42,538 bases of DNA from a virus (IMGVR_UViG_2537561945_000004), one strand, 5' to 3'. Positions 10,015 through 30,225 are shown, numbered from the stretch's first letter. A program made the numbers and translations. Notes: a model not told the origin generated them from the letters alone.

Positions 10015-10028
10015 CGTGACATGTCACG
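10015..10028. repeat. 14-bp perfect palindrome CGTGACATGTCACG (copy 1), overlapping stop codon of 10024-10320
   Basis: Seen directly; preceded by hairpin GGCCGC-GAAA-GCGGCC (9999-10014) and followed by a T-run. Confidence 0.5.
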
Positions 10029-10320
10029 TCCCTTTTCTGAATGATAGCCATTCGAAAAATGATGACATTCCACCGCAGACAATAGCAAAGATTATCCCAC
10101 CAAAGAATAGAAGGCCAGCCTGCCACCACTCCCACCGCCATACATCCACAGCGCCAACCATACCAACAATCGCTCCAACAAATGGAATATAGCTCACGAT
10201 GAAAGCAATGGGGGCTGCAATTATCCAGTGCAATCCCCACCATGATTCAAGCCCAGCCATAATTGCTGCCAACTGAAAAAGACCAACGACGATATAAACA
10301 ATGAATCCTATAGCTTGCAT
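10024..10320 (-). CDS. Small multi-pass membrane protein (accessory), function unknown
   Basis: 98 aa, Trp/Gly/Ile-rich hydrophobic helices; lies between virion genes and the accessory island. Confidence 0.45.
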   Translation of the reverse strand: MQAIGFIVYIVVGLFQLAAIMAGLESWWGLHWIIAAPIAFIVSYIPFVGAIVGMVGAVDVWRWEWWQAGLLFFGGIIFAIVCGGMSSFFEWLSFRKGT

Positions 10321-10515
10321 GTAGTCACCTATTTACCCAATAAAAATAAGAGGCCTCCCCTCAATAAGGCTTGCAACAAGAACTACTCCCTGCACAACAA
10401 AGATGAACCAGCAAATAGCTTGAGTCTGAGGGTTAAGAAAATATTTGTAGCGGTCAATAAATAACAATCCACCAGAAATTATCACACTCAAAATAATTAA
10501 AAACACAACACTTCC

Positions 10516-12990
10516 TTATTGCGGAGTGACATCCTGAGGTCTCCACCAGTATGTCTGGTTAAACTCTTTCTTCGAACGTTGCTCCATTTTACGCAAATAG
10601 CCTGGTGAAAAATACTCCTGCATCTGGTTAAAGATCATGTGATCGAGAGCCACCTTCAAGTACCAGAGATTCGCACCAGGCATCAAACCTTTCCCCAGCT
10701 TAACCAGATCACCACCAGTCTGCTCACTCTTCCCTTCCACAGCATTTAACGGTATGCCCTGAGCAATCTTCACTACGTCATCAACCAGACCAGCTACCGG
10801 GCCAAGCATCGACGCCAGCGCGCCGCTTCCGTACCTGGTGTGATCTGACAATAAAAAGTCACCGTAAAGGCCAAGACCACCACCTTTCAGTAGAGCACCA
10901 AGCCAGAATTTTGCGGCATCTTCTCCTGTCATCTCTCGAGGATTACGACCAGACGCAAGGTCGTTAAGTTGCTGCGACAAAGCGCCAAGAATGGTCGTAC
11001 TGGCAATAAACGTCGCAATATATGCCGCACGCCCACCAGCAGACGGCATACCCATAGCGCGTGACCAGTGACGCATAACAACCGAGATAGGGAACGATTT
11101 AAACAGGAAAACACTTCTCGTTAATTCACCTTTCCATGTTCCACGCTGAATACCAGAACCGGTTATCAGTTGCTCACGAGCTCCCGGTGTAATAACAGCC
11201 ATATCAACTTCTTCAGTTACGGCACCGAGCAATTTACGCATTGCCTCAAATTTCACGCGCTCAGGCTCACCAAGATGTTTAACTGCTGAATCAGGGATAC
11301 GCATAATGCTTTCCGGTGTCAGCATCGTATTATTACCGTTCCCCCAGTCCTCCTGTTGCGCCAGCTTCCATACGCTCCAGTCTGTGTCAGTAATCCCTTT
11401 GCTTTTCAGGATACGAAAATCAGAGTCATCGAGGCTACGAAGGTCTGGTGTCCGTGACACTACTTCTCCCAGGCTTCCCATCATGGTTACGCCATAGGCG
11501 CGCTTGTGCGCATCTGACCATGCTGTAAGCCCACTGGCACGCATTACCGCCGTTGCCGCCCAACGAGACACTGACGGCCCCATATTATCCATCGCCCAGC
11601 GGTTAACGCTGCCAAGTAGAGATTCCATCGCCAGACCAGCGCGGCGCGCCCGCGCAAGTTCTGTACGGTTCGTTGGGTCCATAGCTTCAAGCTGGTTGCG
11701 GAATAACTGGTTCATTGGAAGGTTGGTCACCTTCGCAGACAGATACATGGTTCCAAGATCAGAGAACGATGATAGCAACGCGGATCCGAGTCTGCTGGCA
11801 ACCAGCCAGTTGCGGATATTGTCAGACCATCGCGCGATGTGCGGATTCGCTACAGGCTGTGTCTTTCCGGAAATAAAGTTGTACAGATTCTCTGTGTTGT
11901 TCGCCAGCCGCTCGACTTTACCGGTTTTACTCGGGTTAGCTGTTGCCGTTTCTGCCTTCACCTGATCAAGAAGAGAGCGGAAAACATGATCGGGGTTTGG
12001 GCCATATGTTTCCACCAGTGCAATATCTTTACTGATACCTTCCAGGTGACCGACCATGATTTCCCATAGAGAGCGATCGCCATAAAGTTGCTGATATTGC
12101 AGATAGGAATCTGCATCTTTGAAATGTATCTGTCGTGATGCATTACCACGGTTAGCACGTGCGCCGGAAATTCGCATTCCGGTATCAGTAAGCTTATTCA
12201 GCCCACCAGTAGCGATCGTGTTATAAGCCTCTCCAAGAAATGCAGACAACTCGGCATCGTTCATCAGTTGTCCATCGGCTCGGATATAATATTTGCGATC
12301 CAGCTTACCTATAACATCGCTAACCCACTTATCCTTTGATACCGCCCCAACCTTTTCCATAGAATGATGTTGAGGGATCCCCCAGTTTTCGAGATAGCCA
12401 ATGTCCCCACCAGCATCATTAAACCGGCGGCGCAGTAGATCTGTCACTTCTCTCCACGCCTTAGCACCTTTTCTTGCTTTAGCATTGCCAGTATTTTGCC
12501 CTCGCATTTCATATACCAGGTCACGCACGCCAGCTTCATCTTCAAACAGGCCAAAAAAGCGAGGATCAACTGCTTCAAATGCCTCTTGCAATTGACTCAA
12601 TGCATAATCACGAGTAGCTTTTGTTCTGGACTCAACAGAGAGGAAATTCGATTTACCGTCTGCATTAAAAGCAATAGTACGGTTAAGAGCGCCAAGTTTC
12701 CCATCAGCCCCTTGATAGCTATTGATAAATTTATCCAATCTCTGACGTGCGGCTATAGTGAGGGCCACACGACGTTTCTTTAATGCCGCTTCTCGCTGTA
12801 ATTCTTCAGAGGCCAATTGTGCTGCACGATATAGCCGCTCTGATTCGGAAAGTTGTCTCCACGACATCGGGTCATCACGAGCAATGGAGCGCATATTTCG
12901 ATAAATGCGGTCTTCAATGTTCTGTATTTCTCGCGCCGTTAACGTGCGCTGCGCCGCCTGCTGGACCGCTTGTATACATTCCTGTCTCAT
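10516..12990 (-). CDS. Internal virion / ejection protein (large, T7 gp16-like position)
   Basis: 824 aa, last of a run of large proteins following gp14/gp15-like genes; assignment by position and size. Confidence 0.5.
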   Translation of the reverse strand: MRQECIQAVQQAAQRTLTAREIQNIEDRIYRNMRSIARDDPMSWRQLSESERLYRAAQLASEELQREAALKKRRVALTIAARQRLDKFINSYQGADGKLGALNRTIAFNADGKSNFLSVESRTKATRDYALSQLQEAFEAVDPRFFGLFEDEAGVRDLVYEMRGQNTGNAKARKGAKAWREVTDLLRRRFNDAGGDIGYLENWGIPQHHSMEKVGAVSKDKWVSDVIGKLDRKYYIRADGQLMNDAELSAFLGEAYNTIATGGLNKLTDTGMRISGARANRGNASRQIHFKDADSYLQYQQLYGDRSLWEIMVGHLEGISKDIALVETYGPNPDHVFRSLLDQVKAETATANPSKTGKVERLANNTENLYNFISGKTQPVANPHIARWSDNIRNWLVASRLGSALLSSFSDLGTMYLSAKVTNLPMNQLFRNQLEAMDPTNRTELARARRAGLAMESLLGSVNRWAMDNMGPSVSRWAATAVMRASGLTAWSDAHKRAYGVTMMGSLGEVVSRTPDLRSLDDSDFRILKSKGITDTDWSVWKLAQQEDWGNGNNTMLTPESIMRIPDSAVKHLGEPERVKFEAMRKLLGAVTEEVDMAVITPGAREQLITGSGIQRGTWKGELTRSVFLFKSFPISVVMRHWSRAMGMPSAGGRAAYIATFIASTTILGALSQQLNDLASGRNPREMTGEDAAKFWLGALLKGGGLGLYGDFLLSDHTRYGSGALASMLGPVAGLVDDVVKIAQGIPLNAVEGKSEQTGGDLVKLGKGLMPGANLWYLKVALDHMIFNQMQEYFSPGYLRKMEQRSKKEFNQTYWWRPQDVTPQ

Positions 12991-12995
12991 TTAAT

Positions 12996-14798
12996 TTAAC
13001 CTCTCAAGAAACACGCCACAGCGACATCAAACAGGCTGGAGTCCTGTATTGCCTGCTCACTTTCCCTGTTCGCTTCATCCAGTACTTCACGCGCGCTGCG
13101 CGATTGTGGATTACCATCATCATCCAGCACGGTGATTATCATGTCAGGTGATTCAAGCAGCGAGTCTTCAGCTATGCGCAGATCAATATCTCCTGCCTGA
13201 TCCGCCATCATTTTTTGTTCTGCCTGTTGCAATATTTTATCAGGCTCAAAAGGAGCTACTTCGTCTGGCGTCCTGACCTCTGCTGTTTTATAGAATGAAA
13301 CAGCCTGAGCATTAAGTTCACTTTCTACCTGCAGTCGCCGTGCCAGTTCTGCTCGAGCTTCAAAAAACTGACCGCCAGGCTCATGCGGTGCCAACGCGTT
13401 ACGAGAAAATTCCAGGCGTTCTTGTGCCTGCCGGATTCGTTGGTCAATATCGCGAAGTCTGGCCTGTTTATCTGATCGAGCACGAGATAAAGCCTTACCG
13501 CTACCGGTTGGCTCTTCTGCAAGAATTTGTGCGCGCTGTTCAGTGAGATTTTCAATAATTCGTTGGTTATTAGCGATTTCAGACTGGTAAACCTGTCTAT
13601 CGCCACGCGGCAAAAGCTGCGCGGCCCGTTCTTCAAGCAACCGATTTTCTATAGCGCGCGCCGTTACTCCATCATCTACAGATGACAGAGCCTCATTAAC
13701 TGCCTGAGACAGCAGACTCTTGCGCCCAGGAATTTCACTGAAAGATGCAGACTCAACAATGCTGGCAACGTCTACAGGTCTCCCCTGGCTAACATCAGAC
13801 ATGGCTTTTCGCAGAGCCTGAATGTGCGAATTACGCGAAAGCACGTTGATCGGCACGCCGGGAGCAATATCAATTTCAGCATGATGAGCGGCATTCGCCG
13901 CCAGTGCAGCATCGATATCAACTGGTGAAAAATTTGGTGCGCTTGTAGACTCGCCGCGAGAGTTAATAAATCTGCCGACACCACCAAACGCCACCCCAAG
14001 AACAGCATCAATAGCAATTGCCTGTCGATCCAACACATCATACTGGTTAGCCATTTCGCTATAGCCACCATCACGAAGCGTTTTTGCAGTAAGCCCACGC
14101 TGTGCCATACCGAACGCAATATTTGTACCTGCGGCATAGGCAATATCTGGCGTTGCACGTACTGCTGTTGCTGCGGCGCGTCGCACTGAACTCTCACCCG
14201 TCCGCGCAAGCTGAGCCGCCACACCTTCCGCCAGCGCACCACCAGCACGTAACCCGAGGCTCATAGGGATCAGTGTTCCGGCACCAGCAGTAATGCCCTG
14301 CACTAATCCCGCTTCCTGCGCCGTCCTGAAATCAACACCCTGTGCTGTCAGCCGTTCAAACTCAGAAAAACCCTGTAGCGAAGTTACCGCCGCTGCACCT
14401 CCGACAGGACCACCGAGCGTTGTACCGACAACAGCCTGCCCGCCCATATCGAACAACCCATAAAGAACCTGCCCGGCGGTTCCGGTTGTCGCGGCATCAG
14501 GCGTCAGCCGCTTAACCTGCTGCTCTGCTAGTTTTCTCTGCTCGGCAATGTATGAAACTGAAGTATCATTGAGCGAGGTGTTTTCGTTAATAAACTGAGC
14601 AATCGGGGATACGATTTTATCCATCCCTGCCCATAGCAACTGATCTGGCTTTGCCACCAGCCCGGAGTACAAACCAGACAATGCCGCTCCTACAGCATTG
14701 TCGAAAAAACCAACATCGCTGTTAAAGCCCGCTGGATTTGATGCTGCTTCGTCAAGTTGCTGATTCTGGTTTACTGGATTAAGGCCAAAGTAACTCAT
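12996..14798 (-). CDS. Internal virion / ejection protein
   Basis: 600 aa, Ala/Gly-rich with coiled-coil C-terminal half; start overlaps upstream stop. Confidence 0.5.
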   Translation of the reverse strand: MSYFGLNPVNQNQQLDEAASNPAGFNSDVGFFDNAVGAALSGLYSGLVAKPDQLLWAGMDKIVSPIAQFINENTSLNDTSVSYIAEQRKLAEQQVKRLTPDAATTGTAGQVLYGLFDMGGQAVVGTTLGGPVGGAAAVTSLQGFSEFERLTAQGVDFRTAQEAGLVQGITAGAGTLIPMSLGLRAGGALAEGVAAQLARTGESSVRRAAATAVRATPDIAYAAGTNIAFGMAQRGLTAKTLRDGGYSEMANQYDVLDRQAIAIDAVLGVAFGGVGRFINSRGESTSAPNFSPVDIDAALAANAAHHAEIDIAPGVPINVLSRNSHIQALRKAMSDVSQGRPVDVASIVESASFSEIPGRKSLLSQAVNEALSSVDDGVTARAIENRLLEERAAQLLPRGDRQVYQSEIANNQRIIENLTEQRAQILAEEPTGSGKALSRARSDKQARLRDIDQRIRQAQERLEFSRNALAPHEPGGQFFEARAELARRLQVESELNAQAVSFYKTAEVRTPDEVAPFEPDKILQQAEQKMMADQAGDIDLRIAEDSLLESPDMIITVLDDDGNPQSRSAREVLDEANRESEQAIQDSSLFDVAVACFLRG

Positions 14799-17308
14799 TG
14801 CGGAATATCTCCGGAGAATCTCTGACGCTTCTGTGTCAGATCAAGAACAACAGGAGAACCATCATCTTTCAGCAGATAACCAGTACCAAGTTTCACCAGG
14901 TACTGACTATCGCCGTAACTTTGCAAACCATACTGACCAGGCGGTGTTTTTATCCCGGTGCCGACAACTTGTTCATTCCAAGCCTGATTAACCTGCTTAT
15001 CGAATTGCTCTGCAGACATTCCCCACGGCAAAAGGACATTCCCCATTCCGTTATAGTCATGCACGCCACCTGTAGCTACGTTAACAGCCTGTTTCCAGAT
15101 ATCAGTGTCAATTTCGCCTGATACCACGCCTTTTTTCGCCATCACACCAGCGTAATAGTCCTTTGCGATCTCGTATGCCATTGATGCCCCCTGAGCATCA
15201 CCAGCAAATGCACCCTTCACCATGTCAGAAAACTCAAGGCGAAGATCAGCATCTTTAGGCATCGGAATACCTTTCGCATCATCAGTACCTTTACGAGCCG
15301 CCGCGCCAGCAAGAATTGTCTGCGCAGCGGTTTCAGGAGACACGGAAACATCCGGATTAAACCAGTTTTTTTCTGCCAAAATACCACCAGGCTTGTCCAT
15401 CAGTATCCCGGCAACGGCAGCAGATGGAGCGTTGGCACTGATCTGCTGTAGTGCTGACATATACACCTGCCCACCACCAGTGCTCTGCCTGATGGTATCG
15501 AGATATGCTGCCTGTTGGGAAACTGGAGCATCACGAAAGAAAACACCGATCTGATTGGCCTCGTCTTTGGAAAAGAACGTCAGTGGAGTGCCATATGACT
15601 TAGCAAGGTCACTGACCTGAGCGGCACGCAAGGCAACGCTCTGTCCAAAGTTATCCTTATTGCTCATGTCGATAGGCTTTGCCTGTCCGGAGGAAAGAGA
15701 GAACTGCACAGGATCCGACTGCCGCTGCTTTATCACCTGATTTGCAGCAGAAACAACGTTGTCATAAAGAGCTGCGCGTGCCGCATACCCCTCCCCTGTA
15801 TCACCAGTATCCGGGCGTAATTGCTCAACATATGCTGTAATGCTGCTTGTCGGCATGTTGCGGAAAGAGCCTATATACTGTCCAGCGATCTGCGTATTTC
15901 TGAACTCGGTATATCGCAGGTTTCCTTCTCTGACGCCATAAGCTGCAATAAAATCAGCCTCATCTGGTGGGTTAGGAAATTCAACGCCACGCATATACGC
16001 AGCCGTCGCATCGCGAACCTGGCTGTCAATCATCGTTTTATATTCAGCCTGCTGCTGCCGACGCAGTTGATCCGCCTGCCGCATAAAACTTGCCTGAGCC
16101 TCAGGAGATGCCGCATCGAATGCTGCATTACCGGTATAGCGTTTGGTGTTGGTTGGAATTGTTGATAAACCAAGTGCTGCACTGATACCAGCAGTTAACT
16201 GCTGATCACTGTATGGCTGGCTACCGTTCTCATGATGGATAATGGCTGCACAAAGCGCCTTCAGGGTATCAGGATTTGATGCATCGAGAGGCTCATCAGC
16301 AGAAACGCCAAGTTGTTCGCACACTGCTTTGATATACGACATAGTGTCATTTTTATCAGTAGGCGGTGCCCAGCGATTAATTATCTCGCTGACGGTATCA
16401 ATACCCTGCCGCTGATACGACATCAGGTTCCGCCCTAATGCACGAATCCCGTGTTCGGGTGTTTCGAATTTAGCAAATCTACCATCATCACCGGTCTGGC
16501 CTACCCACGGATTAGTTTTGCTGTATTCGAGATTTCCGGGGTTATTGTTGCGTATGCCACGGACACGCTCGGAAGAGCCACTATCTGCTACAGCACGGCG
16601 AGCTCCAGAAGCAGTATCACTTAATTCGCCATTACTTTGGATGAATGCGGTCGCATTGTTTGCCGACCACTGGGACAATGCGGCATCAGCAACCTTCTCT
16701 TTAAACTCGATTTTCTTGGCCTGGATTTGCTCGTCGCTCCAGCCATGCGCAATGCCGTAATCCTCAATTTGCTGGAAAGTTTGCTTATTAGCCAATACGT
16801 ATGCGGCGTTGTCGCCATACAATGCTGCGGCATTTTTACCATTGTTCAGCAGCGTAGCCTGAAACTGGCCTTCTTCGTAGGCATTTATTTGCCCTATCTC
16901 GTGCCGCCCGGCCTGCGTAGTGAACTGAATGCGCTGCTGCTGCGCCTGCTGCATGAAAGCATTACGAGCCTGTTCATCCGGCAGCGACATAGCCAGTTGT
17001 TCGACCTGAGCATCAAACTGCTGCGTATACTCCTGACCTTTTCCAATAGCATTTTTCCCTTTCAGGTTAAGCAAACCTGTTTCAGGGTTATTCAGCAGAT
17101 CACTGCTTATCTGACTGAGGTTAAGAGATGCCTCCTGAGCCAGAGCGATATTGGCACGCTGTTTTGCCTGACCAAAAACATCAATTGCCTCTGCCCCTGC
17201 CCGAACAAAAGCATCACCAATACCTGGCTGAGAAAACGTCTGCAAGCCTGCTGACTGAACTCCACGGCTCTCAACCTGACGTCCGGATACTGTTGGTACG
17301 ACTGGCAT
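14795..17308 (-). CDS. Internal virion protein (T7 gp15-like position) with central IRNNNPGNL-containing domain
   Basis: ATG 17308 (MPVVPTV...) overlapping the stop of the gp14-like gene; track ORF extends to GTG 17383. Confidence 0.55.
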   Translation of the reverse strand: MPVVPTVSGRQVESRGVQSAGLQTFSQPGIGDAFVRAGAEAIDVFGQAKQRANIALAQEASLNLSQISSDLLNNPETGLLNLKGKNAIGKGQEYTQQFDAQVEQLAMSLPDEQARNAFMQQAQQQRIQFTTQAGRHEIGQINAYEEGQFQATLLNNGKNAAALYGDNAAYVLANKQTFQQIEDYGIAHGWSDEQIQAKKIEFKEKVADAALSQWSANNATAFIQSNGELSDTASGARRAVADSGSSERVRGIRNNNPGNLEYSKTNPWVGQTGDDGRFAKFETPEHGIRALGRNLMSYQRQGIDTVSEIINRWAPPTDKNDTMSYIKAVCEQLGVSADEPLDASNPDTLKALCAAIIHHENGSQPYSDQQLTAGISAALGLSTIPTNTKRYTGNAAFDAASPEAQASFMRQADQLRRQQQAEYKTMIDSQVRDATAAYMRGVEFPNPPDEADFIAAYGVREGNLRYTEFRNTQIAGQYIGSFRNMPTSSITAYVEQLRPDTGDTGEGYAARAALYDNVVSAANQVIKQRQSDPVQFSLSSGQAKPIDMSNKDNFGQSVALRAAQVSDLAKSYGTPLTFFSKDEANQIGVFFRDAPVSQQAAYLDTIRQSTGGGQVYMSALQQISANAPSAAVAGILMDKPGGILAEKNWFNPDVSVSPETAAQTILAGAAARKGTDDAKGIPMPKDADLRLEFSDMVKGAFAGDAQGASMAYEIAKDYYAGVMAKKGVVSGEIDTDIWKQAVNVATGGVHDYNGMGNVLLPWGMSAEQFDKQVNQAWNEQVVGTGIKTPPGQYGLQSYGDSQYLVKLGTGYLLKDDGSPVVLDLTQKRQRFSGDIPQ

Positions 17309-17853
17309 TATAATCCTCCGGGTAATCTGGTTCCTGCTGCTGCCCCGATTGGTGCAGGAGTGCTTTGAGTAAACGGACTCCACGTCCCACCAAACATCTG
17401 GTACGCACCGTATGCCTTCAGAGGCGCAGTGAGCAATGTTGTTGCTGCTCCCACATTCCCCTGTTTACGGGCTGAACTGGCTTCTGCTTTATAGTTGGCA
17501 GCCTGAACCTGATAACCATAAGCCTCGCGTTGCGCGTTATTCACCGTCGTCAGCGAATCAAGAGCGCCAAACTGGGCAGTGTCGCCAAATATATCCAGCG
17601 CGTTACCTGTAGATAAATCAGCGCCGGTAGCCCCCATTGTCGCCGCCTGTGTACCAAGCCGCTGTCGGGTCTCTCTGCGTCGTTGCTCAGCTTCAGCGTT
17701 ACCTCTGTTTATTGCATCATTTGCCTGAGATGTGGCTATATCTGCGTTCGCTTCTGCAACCTTCGAGGCATACTTTCCCTGTTGGTACTGGGTGTATGCC
17801 TGAATGCCACTCATGGCGAGCATTGCGCCACCAGCAATAACCGGATCGCACAT
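17308..17853 (-). CDS. Internal virion protein B-like (T7 gp14-like)
   Basis: N-terminus MCDPVIAGGAMLAMSGIQAYTQYQQG... resembles T7 gp14 N-terminus as I recall it; Ala/Gln-rich, 181 aa. Confidence 0.5.
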   Translation of the reverse strand: MCDPVIAGGAMLAMSGIQAYTQYQQGKYASKVAEANADIATSQANDAINRGNAEAEQRRRETRQRLGTQAATMGATGADLSTGNALDIFGDTAQFGALDSLTTVNNAQREAYGYQVQAANYKAEASSARKQGNVGAATTLLTAPLKAYGAYQMFGGTWSPFTQSTPAPIGAAAGTRLPGGL

Positions 17854-21724: not shown

Positions 21725-21750
21725 CTGCAATAAAGGGGCCGAAGCCCCTT
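21725..21750 (-). terminator. Intra-operon hairpin terminator
   Basis: On the minus strand AAGGGGC-TTCG-GCCCCTT followed by TTATT, just before the RBS of 21393-21722. Confidence 0.45.
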
Positions 21751-21766
21751 GTCTGATCCGCGAGGC

Positions 21767-22111: not shown

Positions 22112-22112
22112 C

Positions 22113-22550: not shown

Positions 22551-22601
22551 CTTCTTTCTCCATTAGTGGGTCTGTTACGACCCACAGGTTAATAACAGGC
22601 G

Positions 22602-23594: not shown

Positions 23595-23602
23595 TTCCTC
23601 TC

Positions 23603-24304
23603 TTATTTGCCATAGAGCACTTCGGCCGCACTACGCTGGCCTTCATTACCACCGGTGACCATGCCATCTTCAGACATCGCCTTTCCGATTTTCACGAACG
23701 TTTTGACCAGATCAGGGTGATTACCCAGCCCGGTGGTGTTCAGATATTCTTTGAGTTCAGGTGTCCCGAACTGGTCAAGCGCACGCTGTGCGGCGCTAAG
23801 GTTAGAAATCAACTTGTCGCCACCGATTTCTTTGTCAGCTTTTACATCCGCAGCCCACTGCTCGGTTGTTTTCTGCCAGGCTTCTGCCTGGCGCTGCTGA
23901 ACACCTGCCAGAATCTTCGGATAAGCATCAACCAGCTTTTGCGCTTGCTCGTTGGTCAGGTTAAGTTCTCGCGCCACCGGCTCGAATTCATTCAACGCTT
24001 CTGTATCCAGCTCTACGCCTTCGGCAGCCTGAAACTCGTACTTCTCAGGCGCACCCTCTGGTTTATCGCCGTCCTTTTTTTCATCCTGCTTATCGTTTTC
24101 AGGCTTTTTGTCATCAGCAGGTTTATCGCCATCAGCAACAGGTTGTGGCTTATCACCTTCCTGTTGTGATGGATCACCAACTGGAGCAGGGTTATCACCT
24201 GCAGGCGCTGACGGTTCTGACGCAGCCGGAGCTGCTCCACCATCGACTGGTTGCTCATTGCAAAGACGGCGATACAGCAAACGCTCAAATAAATTCATGA
24301 TCAC
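23603..24304 (-). CDS. Scaffolding protein
   Basis: 233 aa, highly acidic, Pro/Ala/Asp/Lys low-complexity N-terminal half plus helical C-terminus, between portal and capsid. Confidence 0.55.
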   Translation of the reverse strand: MIMNLFERLLYRRLCNEQPVDGGAAPAASEPSAPAGDNPAPVGDPSQQEGDKPQPVADGDKPADDKKPENDKQDEKKDGDKPEGAPEKYEFQAAEGVELDTEALNEFEPVARELNLTNEQAQKLVDAYPKILAGVQQRQAEAWQKTTEQWAADVKADKEIGGDKLISNLSAAQRALDQFGTPELKEYLNTTGLGNHPDLVKTFVKIGKAMSEDGMVTGGNEGQRSAAEVLYGK

Positions 24305-24597
24305 TCCTGTTCACTGGCCTCTTTGGCCATCTTCAAATACTGTTCAGGGCAATGCGCCATAACGCGCTGAAACAGTTCCAGCGCCAGATTGCGTTGCCCC
24401 TCATTAAATGCCATTGCCATAGCGTCCATCGGTGAGATGGCGGAAAACACACGGCCTTTCTCCAGCACCGACCAGACAACGCGACGCCCCTGTTCACTGC
24501 TCATGACAAAGCGAATGTCATCAATTTCACGCTGCGCCATGTCACGTTGCTTACGGGCGTTTTCTTCTTTCAGTTGATCGTCTTCGTAATCTGTCAT
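24301..24597 (-). CDS. Hypothetical small protein between portal and scaffold
   Basis: 98 aa; overlaps portal stop and scaffold start (translational coupling). Confidence 0.45.
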   Translation of the reverse strand: MTDYEDDQLKEENARKQRDMAQREIDDIRFVMSSEQGRRVVWSVLEKGRVFSAISPMDAMAMAFNEGQRNLALELFQRVMAHCPEQYLKMAKEASEQE

Positions 24598-26273
24598 TGT
24601 GATTGCCCACCCTGACCACTAACTGCATTCGCCATAGCTGACAACACACTCGGATCCGAAGTTTTAGCTTCGCTTAGCGTCTTGGCCCCCTGTGCCGCCG
24701 CCATCCCCATCGCCATCATTTGTTGCTGCTGTTGTTGCTGTGCCCGTTGCTGGCGAGCCTGCTCAACCTGTTCCTGCGGAACAATGACGGTTGGAGACAC
24801 TCCGGACATATCAGCGAATGCATCGATCGCCTGATCAACGTTGAGTTTGTCGAGAGCTTCTGGTTTCGCTTGCGCAAGTTGACCAATGAAGTTGACCGTA
24901 GACGCCAGACTGGACAGGCCGATAGACTTCTGCGCCTGAGCCATGACGGAAATGTATTCGACCTTCAGGGGCATACCTTCCATCGCGTCAGGCGGTGGCG
25001 GCAGCATGTTTTTACGCACCATCATCGAGAAAGCGCGGTCAATGAGAGGATTAAGACATTCGTCGTTCAGACGCTCCAGAACCGGCCCCAACATCAGAAG
25101 TTTTTCTTCTTTCATTTCGATCACCGCTTCAACAGGCATCGAGCGGGTATTGATGTTCTGCAACATCATGAACAGATCGACAAAGTAGGCGCTGTTAATA
25201 ATTTGGCGAGTGTCCTGAATGTCTGCTACCAGATCTGCTGTACTGGGGTTAACCAGATAAGCAGGCCTGAAACCATCCTGACCAGTAATCTGATCGATAT
25301 ACGTGATGTCGCCAGGAAGAAGGGAGGCGCGCTGATTCTTGAGGGAAGTCGGAGCAACCATCGGCGGATTGGTGGCTTTATCAATCAACTGCGACTTGCG
25401 CTTCTGGAGAAGCTGCAATGCCTTAACAGGTCCAAGCGCCAGCATACCCGGGCATGATGATCCATAAACATCTTCGCCGTTAACTTCCCAGCGCGGAGCC
25501 ATAATTGGAAACTCATCGAATCCGGACTCACGCAACAACTTGTCGTTATCGCCACCAACCTCGTAATAAACCGATTTGAATGGCTTGTTCTTGCTATCCA
25601 GCTTCGATGTATCGCGGTCAATGTTCGGGTAAACCGAATGCATCACTTCAATCCACTTCTCGTAGGTGCCGCTTTCCCACATGCTTTTTACGGATTCGCT
25701 GACGTTATTTAGCCCGAACTCCTGAACAAGCTGACGAACAGTCATAGAGAACTTGCGAAAACAGGTGTCCACACTGCCACGAGGTGAGTTAGCCAGGTAG
25801 TAACTGCCTATCGGGAATGGCATTGTGCGAATGATGTCCTCGTCATCCTCCAGCACTGCCATTGCACCAGTGCTGTATGTGCCGAGGCTTCCGTATAACT
25901 GCGGCAGAGACTGATAGAGATTCGACTTATTGAACATATCGTTCATGCGGTTCTGCACCGCCTCAAGCCACAACTTAACAGGGCCATAATCCATCATTTC
26001 AGGATCTGGCGTAGCCAGGCGAAACCACGGACGCGCGGGGCTTGTGATGCCTGACATCATGCCGCTGGCGAGAGTGCGCGCCGCCATAGTCCCGGTCGAA
26101 TCAATAATGCGTGTATTGCGTCGATCGTTACGGTTGACCTCAGAAGTCAGAAAGCGGGAACCACGCGGGTTGATGTAATCACTCAACTCGCGCCAGTGCG
26201 GCTCGAACGACTGACGCTCGCTTTCAAGTTGTGCGAACTGTTTGTTCAATCGCTCTTTAGTTGTTTCCGCCAT
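24594..26273 (-). CDS. Portal (head-to-tail connector) protein, T7 gp8-like
   Basis: 559 aa; Gln/Ala/Met-rich C-terminal tail (QQRAQQQQQQQMMAMGMAAAQGA) like T7-type connectors; GGAG RBS. Confidence 0.7.
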   Translation of the reverse strand: MAETTKERLNKQFAQLESERQSFEPHWRELSDYINPRGSRFLTSEVNRNDRRNTRIIDSTGTMAARTLASGMMSGITSPARPWFRLATPDPEMMDYGPVKLWLEAVQNRMNDMFNKSNLYQSLPQLYGSLGTYSTGAMAVLEDDEDIIRTMPFPIGSYYLANSPRGSVDTCFRKFSMTVRQLVQEFGLNNVSESVKSMWESGTYEKWIEVMHSVYPNIDRDTSKLDSKNKPFKSVYYEVGGDNDKLLRESGFDEFPIMAPRWEVNGEDVYGSSCPGMLALGPVKALQLLQKRKSQLIDKATNPPMVAPTSLKNQRASLLPGDITYIDQITGQDGFRPAYLVNPSTADLVADIQDTRQIINSAYFVDLFMMLQNINTRSMPVEAVIEMKEEKLLMLGPVLERLNDECLNPLIDRAFSMMVRKNMLPPPPDAMEGMPLKVEYISVMAQAQKSIGLSSLASTVNFIGQLAQAKPEALDKLNVDQAIDAFADMSGVSPTVIVPQEQVEQARQQRAQQQQQQQMMAMGMAAAQGAKTLSEAKTSDPSVLSAMANAVSGQGGQSQ

Positions 26274-26287
26274 TTCAATGACTCCGG

Positions 26288-26494
26288 TTACTGACCAAGT
26301 AGCGTTTTACCGCTGGTATTAGCGGTTGATGTGTCGCCCTGAGAACCGGTAAGCAGCGTAGAACTACGACCAGCAGCAGCGCGACGGCGACGAGTTTCTT
26401 CGTCGCGGGCATCAACAACGGCGGCATCCTGCTCCTGTGGTGCTGCCTGAACTTCTGGTGTTGCAGGCACTGATGGTGAGCTACCCATGCACAT
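26288..26494 (-). CDS. Possible small protein upstream of portal
   Basis: 68-aa ORF with GGAGTCATTGA RBS-like motif identical to that in front of the portal gene; weak composition, uncertain. Confidence 0.3.
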   Translation of the reverse strand: MCMGSSPSVPATPEVQAAPQEQDAAVVDARDEETRRRRAAAGRSSTLLTGSQGDTSTANTSGKTLLGQ

Positions 26495-26583
26495 ATCAAT
26501 GACTCCGTACGCAATTAAATTATTACCAATTTAACCACATATGATTTATTTATCGTAGGAGGTTGACATTTAACGCACGAATT

Positions 26584-26600
26584 ATTACCTTTCAGGTAAC
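26584..26600. promoter_or_regulatory. Operator-like palindrome ATTACC-TTTCA-GGTAAC with TTGACA (26563-26568) upstream
   Basis: Perfect TTACC-N5-GGTAA; candidate promoter/operator for the plus-strand ncRNA/tRNA/moron unit. Confidence 0.45.
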
Positions 26601-26920
26601 CAAAAAGTTCATTCCGGTTACTAACCTGACTGGCTTGTCGTTAAATTGAACAGGTGGAGTGAGCTTTTATTTTGAGCAGTACGGCGTATGGCACATGCGC
26701 CGATAGCGGTCTGGGTACGTTTAAGGGGCACCCTCCCTTGCTCGGGCAAACGAACCAGGTAGCCGGAATGTGCAAGTCGAGCGGTTTTATTCCGCGCACG
26801 GGGATTCACCATCCCGGCGATTCGGTGTGACGCCTCGGAAGAGACGAGGTACAACGATGAGAGCATTTATGGATCCGCGACAAAGTGTGGCGCCTTAACA
26901 GGCTAAGTGCTCTCAGCGTT

Positions 26921-26997
26921 GTGGCATTAGCTCAGTTGGACAGAGCAACCGCCTTCTAAGCGGTTGGTCGCAGGTTCGAATCCTGCATGCCACGCCA
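26921..26997 (+). tRNA. tRNA-Arg (anticodon UCU, reads AGA), phage-encoded
   Basis: 77 nt; acceptor stem GTGGCAT/ATGCCAC, discriminator G then CCA; anticodon arm ACCGC-CTTCTAA-GCGGT; T-loop GGTTCGAATCC; sequence differs from the E. coli argU I recall. Confidence 0.85.
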
Positions 26998-27199
26998 GAA
27001 TCACGCCTAAGGACCGTGATGCCAGAAGTTCCAAGTGCTTGGCGGTGATGGTTTCCCTTGAAGGACTATCACCGCCCTTTTTACAGCAGGACGCCATTGC
27101 GATGACTTCATGCTGTAAACCCGTACAGCCACGGAAGGCAGAACTCATTGCTTCCAGTTCGCCCGGTTCGCCGGGCATTTTTTTGCTTGATGACCGCAA

Positions 27200-27216
27200 A
27201 TTACCTTAAAGGTATA
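27200..27216. promoter_or_regulatory. Operator-like palindrome variant ATTACC-TTAAA-GGTATA overlapping RBS of 27220 gene
   Basis: One-mismatch variant (GGTAT) immediately upstream of ATG 27220. Confidence 0.4.
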
Positions 27217-27219
27217 ATC

Positions 27220-28038
27220 ATGAAAAACTTCAAGGTAATTAGCATGTTTGAATCGTTCAAAGAGCTGTTTTTATCTACTGCCAATACTGCCGTGAATCGA
27301 GCCAAAAACCCTGTGCTTGGTGCTTTTGTTATGTCCTGGTGCGCCTTCAACTGGAAATCAATTCTTTATCTATTTTTTAGCAAATCAAACATAATAGATA
27401 AAATTTCATATATCTCAGATAACAGCACATGGAAAACTGTTATGTTTTATCCATGCTTATCTGTAATTGCTATCTGCTGCCTATTACCATGGGTAAACAA
27501 TATCATTAACGTATGGCAAGCAAAGCCTCTTGATAATAATGACTCAATCGAAAATCACCTGAAGGCAAGAAAAATCCAGCGTGAAACAAGGCTGCAGAGG
27601 TTATTGGCTAAAAAAGATGTTACATACGACAAAGTTAAGACTGGCGCGGAAAAAGACATCCAAGAGATGAAAGAAGAGATTATTCGTTCAAAGAATAGTA
27701 TGGGGGAATTGACTGCCGAGTTGAAAGCTAAAGATGACGAATTGAGATCCGCCAGTGCTCAGTTAGCAGCTCTAAATCATTCATTAAAAGAGATATCGGA
27801 AACTCTTGGAAGAATGAATGAGGCATATAAGACCCTCCAAAATGATTTCGACGAATACAAACTCAAATACCCTGAAAAATCTCAAATAAAAAGCCTTGCA
27901 CTTGGCAACGGCCAAACAATTAGCAACTTTTTGGAGCAACACAACTTATCCGGATTAAAATCTGGTAAGCCAAACGTTTTTAATAACTTTGGTGTTCTAT
28001 CTGGATTATCAGGTTTCGAGGATAAAAATAAAGACTAA
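27220..28038 (+). CDS. AT-rich moron: membrane-anchored coiled-coil protein, function unknown (candidate exclusion/abortive-infection-type protein)
   Basis: ATG 27220 (track ORF starts upstream at 27148); two hydrophobic segments then long charged coiled-coil; markedly lower GC than neighbours; opposite strand to the late operon; stop overlaps terminase large stop. Confidence 0.55.
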   Translation: MKNFKVISMFESFKELFLSTANTAVNRAKNPVLGAFVMSWCAFNWKSILYLFFSKSNIIDKISYISDNSTWKTVMFYPCLSVIAICCLLPWVNNIINVWQAKPLDNNDSIENHLKARKIQRETRLQRLLAKKDVTYDKVKTGAEKDIQEMKEEIIRSKNSMGELTAELKAKDDELRSASAQLAALNHSLKEISETLGRMNEAYKTLQNDFDEYKLKYPEKSQIKSLALGNGQTISNFLEQHNLSGLKSGKPNVFNNFGVLSGLSGFEDKNKD

Positions 28039-29510
28039 GCATATGGATCGTACTCGGTAAGCGCCTTGCCTTGCTGGTTCTGCTGCCCGGGAAGTCGCAG
28101 GCGCTTTGACACCGGGAAAGCAAACGTCAGCAGTAGCGCATCGCCTTTACCAGGCGAACGCCCAAGTCGTTCTTTGATATCTTCCTTCGGTTCGATAACG
28201 ATTTTACCGTCCACGCGAACTTTGTACTCTGCCGCCGACAGATCGTCCGCTGTTTCCTGGTCATCCAGCATCCCGCCCAACCTCAGCCATGTCTTGCATG
28301 AGTTGAACATCTCCCCACGCTTGTTAAGCATCTGCGGGTCAGTGGACGCACCGCCGAACGGAACAAGTTGCCATGTACGTCCCCAGCCATCACCGATTGA
28401 CTTCAAACCGGTTCCGTAACCGAAGTCGATGAACACCGCGTCAGCCTGATACTGGTCTTCAAAGTCAGCGATACGCTTCGCCATAATCAGATCGTCGGTA
28501 GTCTTGTTGCCAGTCCACAGCACCTTACTGTGTAGCCCCTGCCGCAGGTATATCACCGCGTCATCAACGCCTGAATATGCCGGGTCAACACCGATTATCA
28601 CCGGAGCATGCGCCACCTGCGCAGCGGTCACCACCCGTTTCATTGCCTCATCAGTAAGACCGGTAGGGATAAACTGCAATTCAGATGCATCAGGGAATAT
28701 GCCGCGCACACGGATTTTAACGAAGTCGCTGTCTTCCCCGTAGTCATCAACCCATTTCTGCAACTGCTGTTTGTTAGTGCCTTCCACCGTCCGGCTGTCA
28801 ATCTGCGCAGTTTTCCAGCGGTGTTTATACTTGCGGAAACATTCACGGAATCGCCCGGTGTTACGTGTCGGGTTTCCGAACGCCACCCAGATAATCTCAG
28901 TGTCTTCGTCCGTAAGCGCACCCTCAGCAACTTCCCACACCAGATCCGCAATATTCGACGCTTCATCGAATACCACGATGATGCGTTTGCGCTCGTTGTG
29001 TAGTCCGGCGAATGCCTCTGTGTTGTGCTCAGACCAGGGGATTGCGTCAGCTCGCCACCGCTTGTCGTGCCCAGGATCATTGCTGTACATCGCGGTAGCG
29101 GTACAGGTAAACCAGTCTTTCGTGATAGCAAGGTTCGACCACTTGATAATTTCCGGCCAGGTCTTCGTTCGTAGCTGGTTGTCGGTGTTGGCGGTCACCA
29201 CGACCTTACAATCCTCGCAAGTGGACATGCCCCAGTTGATCAGCATTGAGATGAATGCGGATTTACCAATACCGTGACCAGAAGCGCGTGCCAGCATAAG
29301 CGGCTGATAGCGCGTCTCTGGATTCTGCAGGTGATCACGTATCTCTCGGAACGCATCAGCCTGCCACTGACGTGGGCCGGTGGCATGTGCCAGTTCAGTC
29401 CCCTCTTCCCCCCACGGGAACGCATAGAGGGCATAGCCAAGCGGATCGTGAGTGAACCCTGCAATATCCTCGATCAACTGCTCTTCAGGAGATAACGCTG
29501 TATCTGTCAC
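28035..29510 (-). CDS. Terminase large subunit
   Basis: 491 aa; ATPase N-terminal and nuclease C-terminal terminase architecture; overlaps terminase small stop. Confidence 0.75.
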   Translation of the reverse strand: MTDTALSPEEQLIEDIAGFTHDPLGYALYAFPWGEEGTELAHATGPRQWQADAFREIRDHLQNPETRYQPLMLARASGHGIGKSAFISMLINWGMSTCEDCKVVVTANTDNQLRTKTWPEIIKWSNLAITKDWFTCTATAMYSNDPGHDKRWRADAIPWSEHNTEAFAGLHNERKRIIVVFDEASNIADLVWEVAEGALTDEDTEIIWVAFGNPTRNTGRFRECFRKYKHRWKTAQIDSRTVEGTNKQQLQKWVDDYGEDSDFVKIRVRGIFPDASELQFIPTGLTDEAMKRVVTAAQVAHAPVIIGVDPAYSGVDDAVIYLRQGLHSKVLWTGNKTTDDLIMAKRIADFEDQYQADAVFIDFGYGTGLKSIGDGWGRTWQLVPFGGASTDPQMLNKRGEMFNSCKTWLRLGGMLDDQETADDLSAAEYKVRVDGKIVIEPKEDIKERLGRSPGKGDALLLTFAFPVSKRLRLPGQQNQQGKALTEYDPYA

Positions 29511-30100
29511 TGATTGCCATCCTGACGTTCTTTCAGTCTCTTCCTGGCTGCCGCTATGCGATCAGCAATTGTCACATTCACATTAACATCCAGACGTTCT
29601 TTGAATGCATTGACATCGACGTGCTTACCAATCAGCTCAAGGTTCTTCACCTTGTCAGGCCATTTAATTTTTTTGAGGATTGTCTCTATCGAATCCTCGT
29701 TCATGTTCATGATGGTCGATGACAGATCAAAGCCGCTAAGCGTAGTGCGCCAGATTTTCGGCCACTCGCGGATTGGCTTAAGGCTCCCATCGTCGTTGAG
29801 GATATCAATCACGTCCATCTGGTCGATCTCCACCAAGCGCATGAGAACGTAATCAGCACTGACACGCATTCGTTTGTTGCGTTCCTCCATCAGCTCGGCA
29901 ATCCGTTTCTGAATGCGTTCATCGCGCATCATGACACTGGCTTTAACTGCCGCTGTATTTGGGGAGAATCCTGCGTTAATCGCTGCCTGAGTCTGGTTTT
30001 CAGGCATTTTGATGTATGACTGGCAATAAGCCTCCTGCATTGCTGTTAGTGGCTTAAATTGCGTTGATTTGCGTTTATAGGTTTTAGGTTCAGCAGGCAT
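29507..30100 (-). CDS. Terminase small subunit
   Basis: ATG 30100 with GGTGG RBS (MPAEPKTYKRKS...); track ORF extends to 30181 across the operator and terminator, which I reject. Confidence 0.6.
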   Translation of the reverse strand: MPAEPKTYKRKSTQFKPLTAMQEAYCQSYIKMPENQTQAAINAGFSPNTAAVKASVMMRDERIQKRIAELMEERNKRMRVSADYVLMRLVEIDQMDVIDILNDDGSLKPIREWPKIWRTTLSGFDLSSTIMNMNEDSIETILKKIKWPDKVKNLELIGKHVDVNAFKERLDVNVNVTIADRIAAARKRLKERQDGNQ

Positions 30101-30120
30101 AATAACCACCCTGGTAATTG

Positions 30121-30135
30121 TTACCGTTGTGGTAA
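30121..30135. promoter_or_regulatory. Operator-like palindrome TTACC-GTTGT-GGTAA (overlapping GGTAA-TTG-TTACC at 30113-30125) in front of the late operon
   Basis: Perfect TTACC-N5-GGTAA 15-30 nt upstream of the terminase small ATG. Confidence 0.5.
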
Positions 30136-30144
30136 TAGTAACAT

Positions 30145-30172
30145 GCAAAATAAAGCCGCCATAGTTGGCGGC
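30145..30172 (-). terminator. Early-operon terminator preceding late genes (tR-prime-like)
   Basis: On the minus strand GCCGCC-aactat-GGCGGC followed by TTTATTTT. Confidence 0.55.
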
Positions 30173-30212
30173 AGTATTCAAAACACATCAAATTCATCAT
30201 GCATAATCTACT

Positions 30213-30225
30213 CGTGACATGTCAC
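30213..30225. repeat. Palindrome CGTGACATGTCAC (copy 2 of GTGACATGTCAC), overlapping stop codon of 30222-30569
   Basis: Seen directly; same 12-bp core as at 10016-10027. Confidence 0.5.

What the first reader, a model, noticed from the sequence alone, without database searches (positions are those of the whole stretch)
10015..30225. Identical palindrome GTGACATGTCAC at two distant sites, each overlapping a stop codon
The 12-bp palindrome GTGACATGTCAC (14 bp CGTGACATGTCACG at 10015-10028; 13 bp at 30213-30225) occurs twice. Each time the TGA stop of an unrelated minus-strand gene (10024-10320 and 30222-30569) lies inside it, and each time it sits at an operon boundary (accessory island/virion genes; early/late junction next to the terminator 30145-30172). 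Two copies of the same 12-bp palindrome in 42.5 kb are unlikely by chance (rough estimate about 1 percent). It could be a protein-binding site (late-gene activator or antiterminator loading site), an RNA processing site, or a recombination hot spot for module exchange.
Basis: seen in the sequence. Interest (0 to 1): 0.45.

Follow-up and report, generated by a model that had tools for sequence, protein, structure and literature searches.

The report
Conserved phage operator resembling host matS
The repeated 12-base palindrome is real and not chance: it is a conserved site (GTGAC-NN-GTCAC, the host matS site minus one base) that travels through many temperate phages with a small uncharacterised DNA-binding protein, whose gene ends inside one copy, and it marks the operon ends where these phages swap accessory genes.

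Summary
Observation confirmed. GTGACATGTCAC lies at 10016-10027 and 30214-30225, each overlapping a minus-strand TGA and lying 0-41 nt before an intrinsic terminator. From the window alone it is only suggestive (1.5-3% by chance). Comparison settles it.

The window is a phiV10/epsilon15-like prophage at guaA. The same 12-mer is perfectly kept at three syntenic places in epsilon15 and Tyrion (about 77-81% DNA identity), where the adjoining sequence on one or both sides is unrelated or highly variable.

The general motif GTGAC-N2-GTCAC recurs in unrelated phage types: N15-like, P2-like Yersinia and two Vibrio lineages. All encode a homologue of ORF 30222-30569, and the motif usually sits at that gene's stop codon. 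Of 1024 possible half-sites, GTGAC is the only one found in all seven genomes tested. Two whole control phages and the P2 early region, all without the gene, have none.

A confident AlphaFold model of the protein matches ribbon-helix-helix DNA binders, with MatP ranked fourth. The motif is E. coli matS (GTGACATTGTCAC) minus one central base.

Best reading: it is the operator of this new ribbon-helix-helix/zinc-knuckle family, placed at operon ends that are also breakpoints of accessory-gene exchange. Binding and the effect on transcription are inferred, not shown.

The parts
30214..30225 (.). Palindrome GTGACATGTCAC, site 2. It overlaps the TGA of the regulator gene at the junction between the early-right operon and the late genes.
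   Evidence: The site is kept in epsilon15 and Tyrion; phiV10 has one mismatch at this position. About 76 of 80 related IMG/VR loci have it at this position.
10016..10027 (.). Palindrome GTGACATGTCAC, site 1. It lies at the end of the virion-gene operon, abuts the terminator, and sits between convergent transcription units.
   Evidence: The site is kept in phiV10, epsilon15 and Tyrion and in 71 of 80 IMG/VR loci.
4891..4902 (.). Third match to the general motif (GTGACGGGTCAC), inside tail-fibre gene 3176-5338, 34 nt before the point where homology with other tail fibres ends. It may be functional or may be chance.
   Evidence: It is also present in the identical prophage of E. coli BE311 but not in phiV10, epsilon15 or Tyrion. 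About 0.04 such matches are expected per genome.
30222..30569 (-). Gene for the 115-aa candidate binding protein (the 'p55 family': phiV10 p55, epsilon15 gp49, N15 gp46, phrog_536). It has a basic helix, a ribbon-helix-helix core and a Cys-rich zinc knuckle.
9998..10015 (-). Intrinsic terminator of the virion operon (GGGCCGCTTTCGCGGCCT followed by TGTTTTT), directly after site 1. On the plus strand the same hairpin has no U-tract.
   Evidence: It is annotated as a terminator in phiV10 and epsilon15. This flank is constant in 71 loci.
30155..30172 (-). Intrinsic terminator between the regulator gene and terS (GCCGCCAACTATGGCGGC followed by TTTATTTT).
   Evidence: It is conserved in phiV10, epsilon15 and Tyrion and annotated in epsilon15.
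30181..30213 (-). Remnant of a small accessory gene between site 2 and the terminator. Only its first and last codons are left.
   Evidence: Locus L006 carries the full gene of about 80 aa at this place. Epsilon15 and Tyrion have 22 nt here instead.
10024..10320 (-). 98-aa membrane-protein gene (phrog_3075), the variable last gene of the virion operon, which runs into site 1.
   Evidence: Two other unrelated sequences take its place in other loci, while the palindrome and terminator stay.

Best explanation
The palindrome is one form of a conserved 12-bp operator, GTGAC-N2-GTCAC. The operator belongs to a family of small phage proteins of about 110 aa, here ORF 30222-30569. Each protein has a basic helix, a ribbon-helix-helix core and a Cys-rich zinc knuckle.

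The protein most likely binds each site as a symmetric dimer. The geometry would resemble the host ribbon-helix-helix protein MatP on matS, which has the same half-sites one base further apart.

In this phage group the sites lie at the ends of transcription units:
- after the early-right operon, at the regulator's own stop codon;
- beside the terminase terminator (this copy is lost in the window);
- at the end of the virion operon.

Each site is within 0-41 nt of an intrinsic terminator. My best guess is that the bound protein controls how much transcription crosses these boundaries, either as a roadblock or insulator or by modifying read-through at the adjacent terminator.

Because the 12-mer is identical in otherwise diverged phages, it also serves as the point where accessory genes are exchanged.

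Shown:
- conservation and position of the sites;
- co-occurrence with the gene;
- the predicted fold of the protein;
- the mosaic breakpoints.

Inferred:
- binding of the protein to the site;
- the dimer geometry;
- any effect on transcription;
- any causal role in recombination.
For: **1. The site is kept in divergent relatives.**
- Epsilon15 has the exact 12-mer at 2142, 19517 and 39612. Tyrion has it at 2702, 20377 and across the record junction. PhiV10 has it at 2262 and 19493, with a one-mismatch copy at the junction.
- These genomes are only about 77-81% identical to the window in DNA.

**2. The motif follows the gene across phage types.**
- It overlaps or closely follows the stop of the homologue in N15, YDC107_1 and Kpn74 (GTGACTGGTCAC), in P2-like Yersinia phages (GTGACGCGTCAC), in Vibrio phage 10N.237.312 (GTGACAGGTCAC) and in metagenomic locus L145.
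- In the Yersinia lineage 46 of 57 loci have it at the stop, and 4 loci with a different C-terminus keep it 10 nt downstream.
- Vibrio K308 and L149 carry three copies each. One lies 19-20 nt before the terS start codon.

**3. Enumeration test.** Of all 1024 half-site/N2/reverse-complement palindromes, GTGAC is the only one present in all 7 genomes. It totals 18 copies against 5 for the next best. The spacing is always 2.

**4. Controls without the gene have 0 copies.** These are lambda, Pseudomonas phage UFJF_PfDIW6 (same virion module) and the P2 early region.

**5. The protein looks like a DNA binder.**
- The AlphaFold model has pLDDT 93.
- Weak RHH hits appear in Pfam and NCBIfam.

**6. 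The half-sites are invariant while the central pair varies** (AT, GC, AC, CC, TG, AG, GG). This fits base-specific protein contacts.

**7. Mosaic breakpoints lie at or within about 15 nt of the palindrome edge** at all three sites.
Against: - No binding experiment exists, and the library of papers holds nothing on this protein family or this sequence.
- The exposed residues of the presumed beta-strand differ between lineages although the half-site does not. Recognition would then have to rest on the conserved basic helix (RKxxQRxR).
- Some homologues lack a nearby site: L146, Aeromonas 14AhydR10PP and L144 at its stop.
- The site is not at the regulator's own promoter, which is where ribbon-helix-helix operators usually lie.
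- Its position relative to the terminator is not uniform: before it at two sites, 4 nt after it (in the terL direction) at the third. No single transcriptional mechanism fits all sites.
- The exact 12-mer also occurs as a coding coincidence in other phages.
Confidence: 0.6

Rival explanations
1. The sites are bound by a host protein, most obviously MatP, rather than by the phage protein. They would then act as ectopic matS-like sites or as host-factor roadblocks, including in the lysogen, where the phage early operon is silent.
For: - The half-sites are identical to matS: GTGAC[AG]N[CT]GTCAC (PMC3603311), consensus GTGACATTGTCAC (PMC8669397).
- All hosts of phages carrying the gene are Enterobacterales, Vibrio or Aeromonas. 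From my own knowledge of MatP's distribution, not tested here, this is roughly the group that has MatP.
- A host factor would be present in lysogens, when the accessory genes next to the sites are expressed.
Against: - The spacing is strictly 2 in all 18 sites and in the further sites found in N15, L235 and the Yersinia loci. The only match to the 13-bp matS pattern in these genomes is K308 19491. Losing one base pair moves and rotates the half-sites, which symmetric dimers rarely tolerate.
- The motif follows the phage gene, not merely the host taxon: lambda and P2 infect E. coli and have none.
- The prophage sits at guaA, outside the Ter region.
Confidence: 0.1
2. There is no dedicated binding protein. 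The 12-mer is simply a conserved 'linker' next to terminators, and it persists because it provides microhomology for module exchange by the phage RecE/RecT-type recombinase.
For: - Breakpoints coincide with, or lie within about 15 nt of, the palindrome edge at all three sites.
- These phages encode RecT/RecE-like proteins.
Against: - This does not explain why the same half-sites recur in N15-like, P2-like and Vibrio phages next to one particular gene.
- It does not explain why 12 bp stay perfect while functional neighbours such as the terminators drift.
- A linker needs no dyad symmetry.
Confidence: 0.1
3. The element works in RNA, as a small hairpin at the 3' end of the messages. It could be a processing, stability or nut-like site, or it could control translation of the next gene.
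For: - It is transcribed at gene ends.
- In N15-like phages, in the Vibrio phages and in the cargo-bearing Uetakevirus variant it lies 8-22 nt before a start codon.
Against: - The hairpin is only 4 bp and -1.2 kcal/mol, no better than shuffled sequence.
- No compensatory substitution is seen in any site; the arms are invariant.
- At two of the three Uetakevirus sites no downstream gene follows.
- The associated protein has a DNA-binding fold.
Confidence: 0.05
4. The two copies in the window are a coincidence.
For: Taken alone, a repeated 12-bp palindrome arises in 1.5-3% of random windows. The exact 12-mer also occurs inside conserved coding sequences of other phages.
Against: - It is conserved at syntenic non-coding positions across a genus.
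- GTGAC is the only half-site shared by all seven genomes.
- 62 of the 128 exact 14-mer matches seen in IMG/VR fall in the three Uetakevirus contexts.
Confidence: 0.01

Closest known systems
MatP / matS of E. coli and relatives (Ter macrodomain organiser)
   Same: - The half-sites GTGAC and GTCAC are identical, and the phage 12-mer is the matS consensus GTGACATTGTCAC minus one central base.
- MatP binds through a ribbon-helix-helix domain; this comes from my own knowledge and was not tested here.
- Both proteins have a basic 'RAR' helix just before the strand. This is my reading of the sequences.
   Different: - The spacer is 2 bp, not 3.
- Sequence homology is not detectable: hhalign probability 0.1-0.2.
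- The phage protein lacks MatP's four-helix bundle and coiled coil and has a zinc knuckle instead.
- The sites lie at phage operon ends, not in Ter, and the prophage is at guaA.
Ribbon-helix-helix repressors with short palindromic operators (P22 Arc and Mnt, CopG, antitoxins such as MazE, ParD and TacA)
   Same: - The predicted fold matches.
- The protein is small and the target is a short dyad-symmetric site.
- In N15 and the Yersinia phages a site lies just upstream of an antirepressor operon. This recalls Arc and Mnt control of ant.
   Different: - The operator is not at the regulator's own promoter. It lies at its stop codon and at other operon ends beside terminators.
- There is an extra C-terminal zinc knuckle.
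- Pfam RHH models are not matched above threshold.
Lambdoid Q antiterminators with a DNA binding element, a promoter and a terminator ahead of the late genes
   Same: - The gene is the last one of the early-right operon.
- The order is gene, DNA site, terminator, then terS.
- The Pseudomonas relative with the same virion module has a Q-like gene near the same position, followed by a few small genes and the lysis cassette before terS.
   Different: - No Q family is matched.
- No convincing promoter surrounds the site.
- N15-like phages have both Q and this gene.
- Extra sites lie at the ends of late operons.
F-plasmid TraR / DksA-type C4 zinc-finger proteins (bind the RNA polymerase secondary channel)
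   Same: The C-terminal half gives marginal profile matches to TraR and YbiI. The motif CxxCGxxLPxxxxxxFxGxxxC aligns with TraR's CEACGNPIPEARRKIFPGVTLC.
   Different: - E-values are only 0.06-0.09.
- There is no Pfam zf-dskA_traR hit.
- The second Cys pair is arranged differently.
Dispersed centromere palindromes of N15 (SopB sites)
   Same: A short perfect palindrome is scattered at a few places in a phage genome, some within or next to operons. The N15-type palindrome TGCGACCGCGGTCGCA is seen in Kpn74 and, by its CGACC half-site count, in YDC107_1. Calling it a centromere site rests on my own recollection.
   Different: - The sequence is different.
- The binder there is a ParB-type protein.
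- The integrating phages studied here have no partition genes.

Membership tests
Ribbon-helix-helix regulator with its operator | The protein has the strand-helix-helix fold that dimerises to form a two-stranded sheet. | tested here: met
Ribbon-helix-helix regulator with its operator | The protein binds a short symmetric or repeated DNA site. | not testable with these tools
   Only co-occurrence of the gene and the motif is shown.
Ribbon-helix-helix regulator with its operator | The operator overlaps the regulated promoter, usually the regulator's own. | tested here: not met
   In this phage the sites lie at 3' gene ends beside terminators. Only weak promoter-like matches use GTGACA as a -35 element.
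MatP / matS | A 13-bp site GTGAC[AG]N[CT]GTCAC. | tested here: not met
   All phage sites have a 2-nt spacer. No 13-bp match occurs in the window, phiV10, epsilon15, Tyrion, N15 or the Yersinia phage.
MatP / matS | The protein is homologous to MatP (four-helix bundle, ribbon-helix-helix, coiled coil). | tested here: inconclusive
MatP / matS | The sites are concentrated in the chromosomal terminus region. | tested here: not met
   The sites are in a prophage inserted at the 3' end of guaA.
Q-type antitermination module | A protein of a known Q family. | tested here: not met
   No Pfam or NCBIfam Q match.
Q-type antitermination module | A DNA site embedded in a late promoter, followed by a terminator. 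| tested here: inconclusive
   The terminator is present. The promoter-like match GTGACA-18-CATGAT is weak and is not kept in the cargo-bearing variant.
Intrinsic terminator | A G+C-rich hairpin followed by a U-tract. | tested here: not met
   The palindrome alone folds at -1.2 kcal/mol and has no U-tract. The true terminators are separate hairpins next to it.
TraR/DksA C4 zinc-finger proteins | Match to the zf-dskA_traR signature with two CxxC pairs. | tested here: inconclusive
   Profile E-values are 0.056-0.085 against TraR and YbiI. There is no Pfam hit. Only one CxxC pair is invariant.
Host repetitive element or insertion-sequence end | Many copies with shared flanks, or terminal inverted repeats bracketing a transposase. 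| tested here: not met
   The flanks of the two copies are unrelated. The nearby IS2 (8236-9563) is a separate recent insertion, absent from the identical prophage in BE311. There are 0 copies in 21 kb of host DNA.
Module-boundary 'linker' sequences of mosaic phages | A short conserved sequence lying exactly at breakpoints between exchangeable modules. | tested here: met
   One flank is constant and the other falls into several unrelated classes at all three sites. Whether the sequence causes the exchange cannot be tested with these tools.

The most novel reading that the evidence does not exclude
The 115-aa protein is a phage counterpart, or a captured relative, of the host chromosome organiser MatP. 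GTGAC-N2-GTCAC would then be a private 'phage matS', shifted by one base so that host MatP and the phage protein do not cross-react. The system would mark or organise phage DNA, for example by bridging the sites, excluding the host condensin MukBEF, or insulating operons. It would not act as a classical repressor.
Probability: 0.12. Interest if true: 0.85.

Novelty: new variant of a known kind. Interest (0 to 1): 0.6.

Why it matters
**A testable function for an unstudied family.** The family has about 185 clusters at 50% identity. Sources name its members 'hypothetical' or, generically, 'transcriptional regulator'. It is found in temperate phages of Escherichia, Salmonella, Klebsiella, Yersinia, Vibrio and Aeromonas. 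This work gives it a precise cognate site.

**An unstudied layer of gene control.** Transcriptional control in epsilon15/phiV10-type phages appears little studied; the held literature had nothing on this site or protein. A protein-bound site placed at operon ends beside terminators has not been described for them.

**A mechanistic handle on accessory-gene exchange.** The sites mark exactly where accessory and lysogenic-conversion genes are swapped.

**A possible link to the host chromosome.** The near-identity to matS raises the question of whether phages copy, avoid or interfere with the host's chromosome-organising system. An earlier survey looked only for the 13-bp matS pattern and reported none in 500 prophages (PMC3603311). 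It would have missed these 12-bp sites.

Tried and rejected
- **Record start as a physical genome end (cos or pac).** The phiV10 record begins inside the palindrome. This is only a depositor's convention, since the record starts right after the last stop codon.
- **The other palindrome, TTACC-N5-GGTAA, as the p55 site.** It has 10 copies in the window and is annotated as a repressor site in epsilon15. I rejected it because it is absent from the Vibrio, Yersinia and N15-like phages that carry the gene.
- **Sequence homology to MatP.** Not detectable.
- **Sequence searches of the protein.** PDB, Pfam and NCBIfam gave no significant match.
- **Literature.** Searches for the sequence, for RHH/zinc late regulators and for MatP-like phage proteins found nothing. 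The epsilon15 genome paper is not held. The ZX5 paper concerns other proteins.
- **Promoter reading (GTGACA as a -35 element).** The match is weak and not conserved.
- **Second word-indexed protein search with a diverse profile.** It again returned only close relatives.
- **First chance simulation.** It timed out.
Full report
**1. The observation**

GTGACATGTCAC occurs exactly twice, at 10016-10027 and 30214-30225. None of 100 dinucleotide shuffles contains it.

Each copy is followed on the minus strand by a terminator-like hairpin with a U-tract. At site 1 the hairpin is 10015-9998 and abuts the palindrome. At site 2 it is 30172-30155, 41 nt further on.

The window contains 12 perfect 12-bp palindromes. 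A repeated one turns up in 3% of 400 Markov simulations, and the analytic estimate is 1.5%. The window alone is therefore only suggestive.

**2. What the window is**

It is a phiV10/epsilon15-type (Uetakevirus) prophage with its late genes on the minus strand.
- Bases 1-1071 are the host genes yfgH and yfgI. The integrase is at the right end. The same prophage, 100% identical over the segment compared (window 3800-12100 apart from the IS2), sits at the 3' end of guaA in E. coli BE311.
- The window differs from that copy by an IS2 insertion at 8236-9563.
- Site 2 lies between the last early-right gene and terS. The true terS start is most likely the conserved ATG at 30100.
- Site 1 lies between the last gene of the virion operon and a convergent accessory operon (BRO-N, DUF4760 and a 53-aa gene).

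**3. Conservation within the phage group**

Epsilon15 (Salmonella) and Tyrion (Enterobacter) are about 77-81% identical to the window in DNA. Each carries the exact 12-mer at three syntenic places:
- at the stop of the homologue of 30222-30569;
- in the accessory-gene slot after terL, 4 nt after the terL terminator in epsilon15 and phiV10 and next to the 3' end of a leftward accessory gene; in Tyrion it lies about 530 nt further on, just past the stop of gp53;
- at the end of the virion operon, 1-2 nt before its terminator.

PhiV10 has two exact copies and a one-mismatch copy at the junction.

The window lacks the terL copy. Its accessory gene there (27148-28038, plus strand) has replaced both the terminator and the palindrome.

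**4. Mosaic breakpoints**

- *After terL.* In 80 IMG/VR loci around the regulator gene, the sequence on the terL side is constant, and at least eight unrelated sequences begin right at the palindrome edge. Four loci have an empty slot that still keeps the palindrome.
- *At the regulator stop.* Two alternatives follow the palindrome after a shared stretch of about 15 nt. One is a complete gene of about 80 aa. The window keeps only its first and last codons (30181-30213).
- *At the end of the virion operon.* 71 of 80 loci keep the palindrome and the terminator, while the upstream gene belongs to at least three unrelated types.

The palindrome therefore marks the sites where accessory genes are exchanged. 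The overlap with the stop codon at site 1 is a by-product of this. The motif contains TGA on both strands, so an incoming ORF in the right frame ends in it.

**5. The motif follows one gene across unrelated phages**

tblastn finds homologues of ORF 30222-30569 in 153 phage records from Vibrio, Escherichia, Salmonella, Klebsiella, Yersinia, Aeromonas, Enterobacter, Pectobacterium and Citrobacter. A GTGAC-N2-GTCAC palindrome lies at or near the 3' end of the homologue in most lineages examined.

| Lineage | Site at or near the gene's stop | Other copies |
|---|---|---|
| N15, YDC107_1, Kpn74 (N15-like) | GTGACTGGTCAC overlaps the stop | N15 and YDC107_1: one inside repA and one next to the antirepressor operon (before it in N15). 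Kpn74: only a 6.3-kb stretch was examined |
| P2-like Yersinia prophages | GTGACGCGTCAC at the stop in 46 of 57 loci; 10 nt downstream in 4 loci with a different C-terminus | few |
| Vibrio phage 10N.237.312 | GTGACAGGTCAC overlaps the stop | not examined genome-wide |
| Metagenomic locus L145 | GTGACATGTCAC overlaps the stop | – |
| Vibrio K308, L148, L149 | first copy about 225-240 nt downstream | three in K308 and L149, two in the shorter locus L148; one lies 19-20 nt before the terS start codon. Between K308 and L149 the central pair changes (AC to CC) and the arms do not |

*Enumeration test.* Of all 1024 possible 5-mer/N2/reverse-complement palindromes, GTGAC is the only one present in all seven genomes. 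The next best is found in three. GTGAC totals 18 copies, against 5 for the next best. Among spacings of 0 to 8, only 2 is used recurrently. About 0.04 copies per genome are expected by chance.

*Controls without the gene.* Lambda, Pseudomonas phage UFJF_PfDIW6 (same virion module, but with Q and Arc instead) and the P2 early region have no copy.

*Exceptions.* L146, an Aeromonas phage fragment and L144 at its stop have the gene but no nearby site.

**6. The protein**

- It matches no Pfam family and no PDB sequence. PHROGs calls it 'transcriptional regulator' (phrog_536); other sources call it hypothetical.
- The family has 185 clusters at 50% identity.
- A diverse alignment shows three conserved parts: a basic helix (RKxxQRxR), a strand-helix-helix pattern, and CxxCG...P...C...G...C.
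- With that alignment AlphaFold gives pLDDT 93.
- Weaker leads are RHH_5, RepB and RHH_1 hits in a few members and a marginal match of the C-terminal half to the TraR/YbiI zinc fingers (E 0.06-0.09).

**7. Relation to matS**

The host MatP site is GTGAC[AG]N[CT]GTCAC, with consensus GTGACATTGTCAC (PMC3603311; PMC8669397). The phage 12-mer is that consensus minus one central base.
- Sequence homology between the phage protein and MatP is not detectable. I checked my recalled MatP sequence against PDB 4D8J. hhalign gives probability 0.1-0.2.
- I therefore treat MatP/matS as the closest working analogue, not as the family.
- Binding by host MatP itself is unlikely, because the spacing is strictly 2 and the motif is absent from lambda and P2. 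It is not excluded.

**8. Mechanism**

*Most likely (about 0.7).* The protein binds these sites as a symmetric dimer. Invariant arms with a free central pair fit base-specific protein contacts. They do not fit an RNA structure, which would fold at only -1.2 kcal/mol and shows no compensatory changes.

*Open.* What binding does is unknown.
- All sites in this phage lie at the ends of transcription units beside terminators. In other lineages several lie inside transcribed regions, 8-22 nt before a start codon. That position argues against a classical upstream activator. It favours an action on elongating polymerase, either as a roadblock or insulator or by changing read-through at the terminator.
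- The site precedes the terminator at two places and, in the terL direction, follows it at the third. No single geometry is established.
- A causal role in recombination is possible but not shown.

**9. Caveats**

- The exact 12-mer also occurs by coding coincidence in other phages. One case is the 'SVTCHSC' zinc finger of a 260-aa protein. Another is codons 2-5 of a protein whose N-terminus, by my own recollection, resembles Q antiterminators of the phage-82 type; it was not searched against any family. Exact conservation among close relatives is therefore not proof by itself.
- The third site in the window (4891-4902, inside the tail-fibre gene, 34 nt before the end of the conserved N-terminal domain) may be chance.
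- Frequency in the host genome could not be measured. Only 21 kb of host DNA was checked.

Noticed in passing
window 5443, 6563, 6656, 26585, 30121, 33659, 33721, 36052, 36764, 36826 (each 15 bp): A second palindrome family, TTACC-N5-GGTAA, has ten copies. They lie in the immunity region and upstream of terS, the portal operon and the tail-fibre gene. The epsilon15 record annotates the same sites as repressor-binding, so the prophage repressor may act directly on the late promoters. The family is absent from the Vibrio, Yersinia and N15-like phages that carry the p55-type gene.
   Followed up: partly
window 8236-9563: An IS2 (IS3-family transposase, ORFs 8280-8690 and 8648-9553) is inserted in the accessory region. 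It is absent from the otherwise 100% identical prophage of E. coli BE311.
   Followed up: yes
window 1-1071: The first two ORFs are the host genes yfgH and yfgI. The prophage sits at the 3' end of guaA, so the window is a prophage plus one host flank.
   Followed up: yes
window 26921-26997 (+): A tRNA-Arg (anticodon TCT) lies on the strand opposite the late genes, in the accessory slot between terL and the portal operon.
   Followed up: no
window 27148-28038 (+): An accessory gene (phrog_4780, function unknown) has replaced the terL terminator and the third palindrome copy that most relatives carry here.
   Followed up: partly
window 6900-7650 (maps to L002 3141-3852): In the identical BE311 prophage the BRO-N domain gene of the accessory operon is annotated as frameshifted.
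   Followed up: no
L085 1460 and 5147; L090 (five copies of the CGACC half-site): N15-like phages carry another dispersed perfect palindrome, TGCGACCGCGGTCGCA. It is probably their partition (SopB-type) centromere site; that identification is from memory only.
   Followed up: no
L088 19491-19503: Vibrio phage K308 has one true 13-bp matS match (GTGACACCGTCAC) in addition to its three 12-bp sites.
   Followed up: no
L254 about 10790-10860; L302 about 1900-1960; L340 about 10830-10900; L273; L283: High-GC viral contigs (64-68% G+C) carry dense arrays of GTGAC and GTCAC half-sites in both orientations around the exact palindrome, like iterons. No p55-type gene lies within the fragments held.
   Followed up: no
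L090 (CP025712.1) about 28000-46700: The YDC107_1 record contains a large inverted duplication of its replication, antirepressor and protelomerase region. This doubles two of its motif sites and may be an assembly artefact or a telomere-related structure.
   Followed up: no
P0297 (1245 aa), P0300 (398 aa), P0298 (255 aa), P0212 (256 aa): Some family members are fused into much longer proteins. P0297 matches the profile in nine stretches.
   Followed up: no
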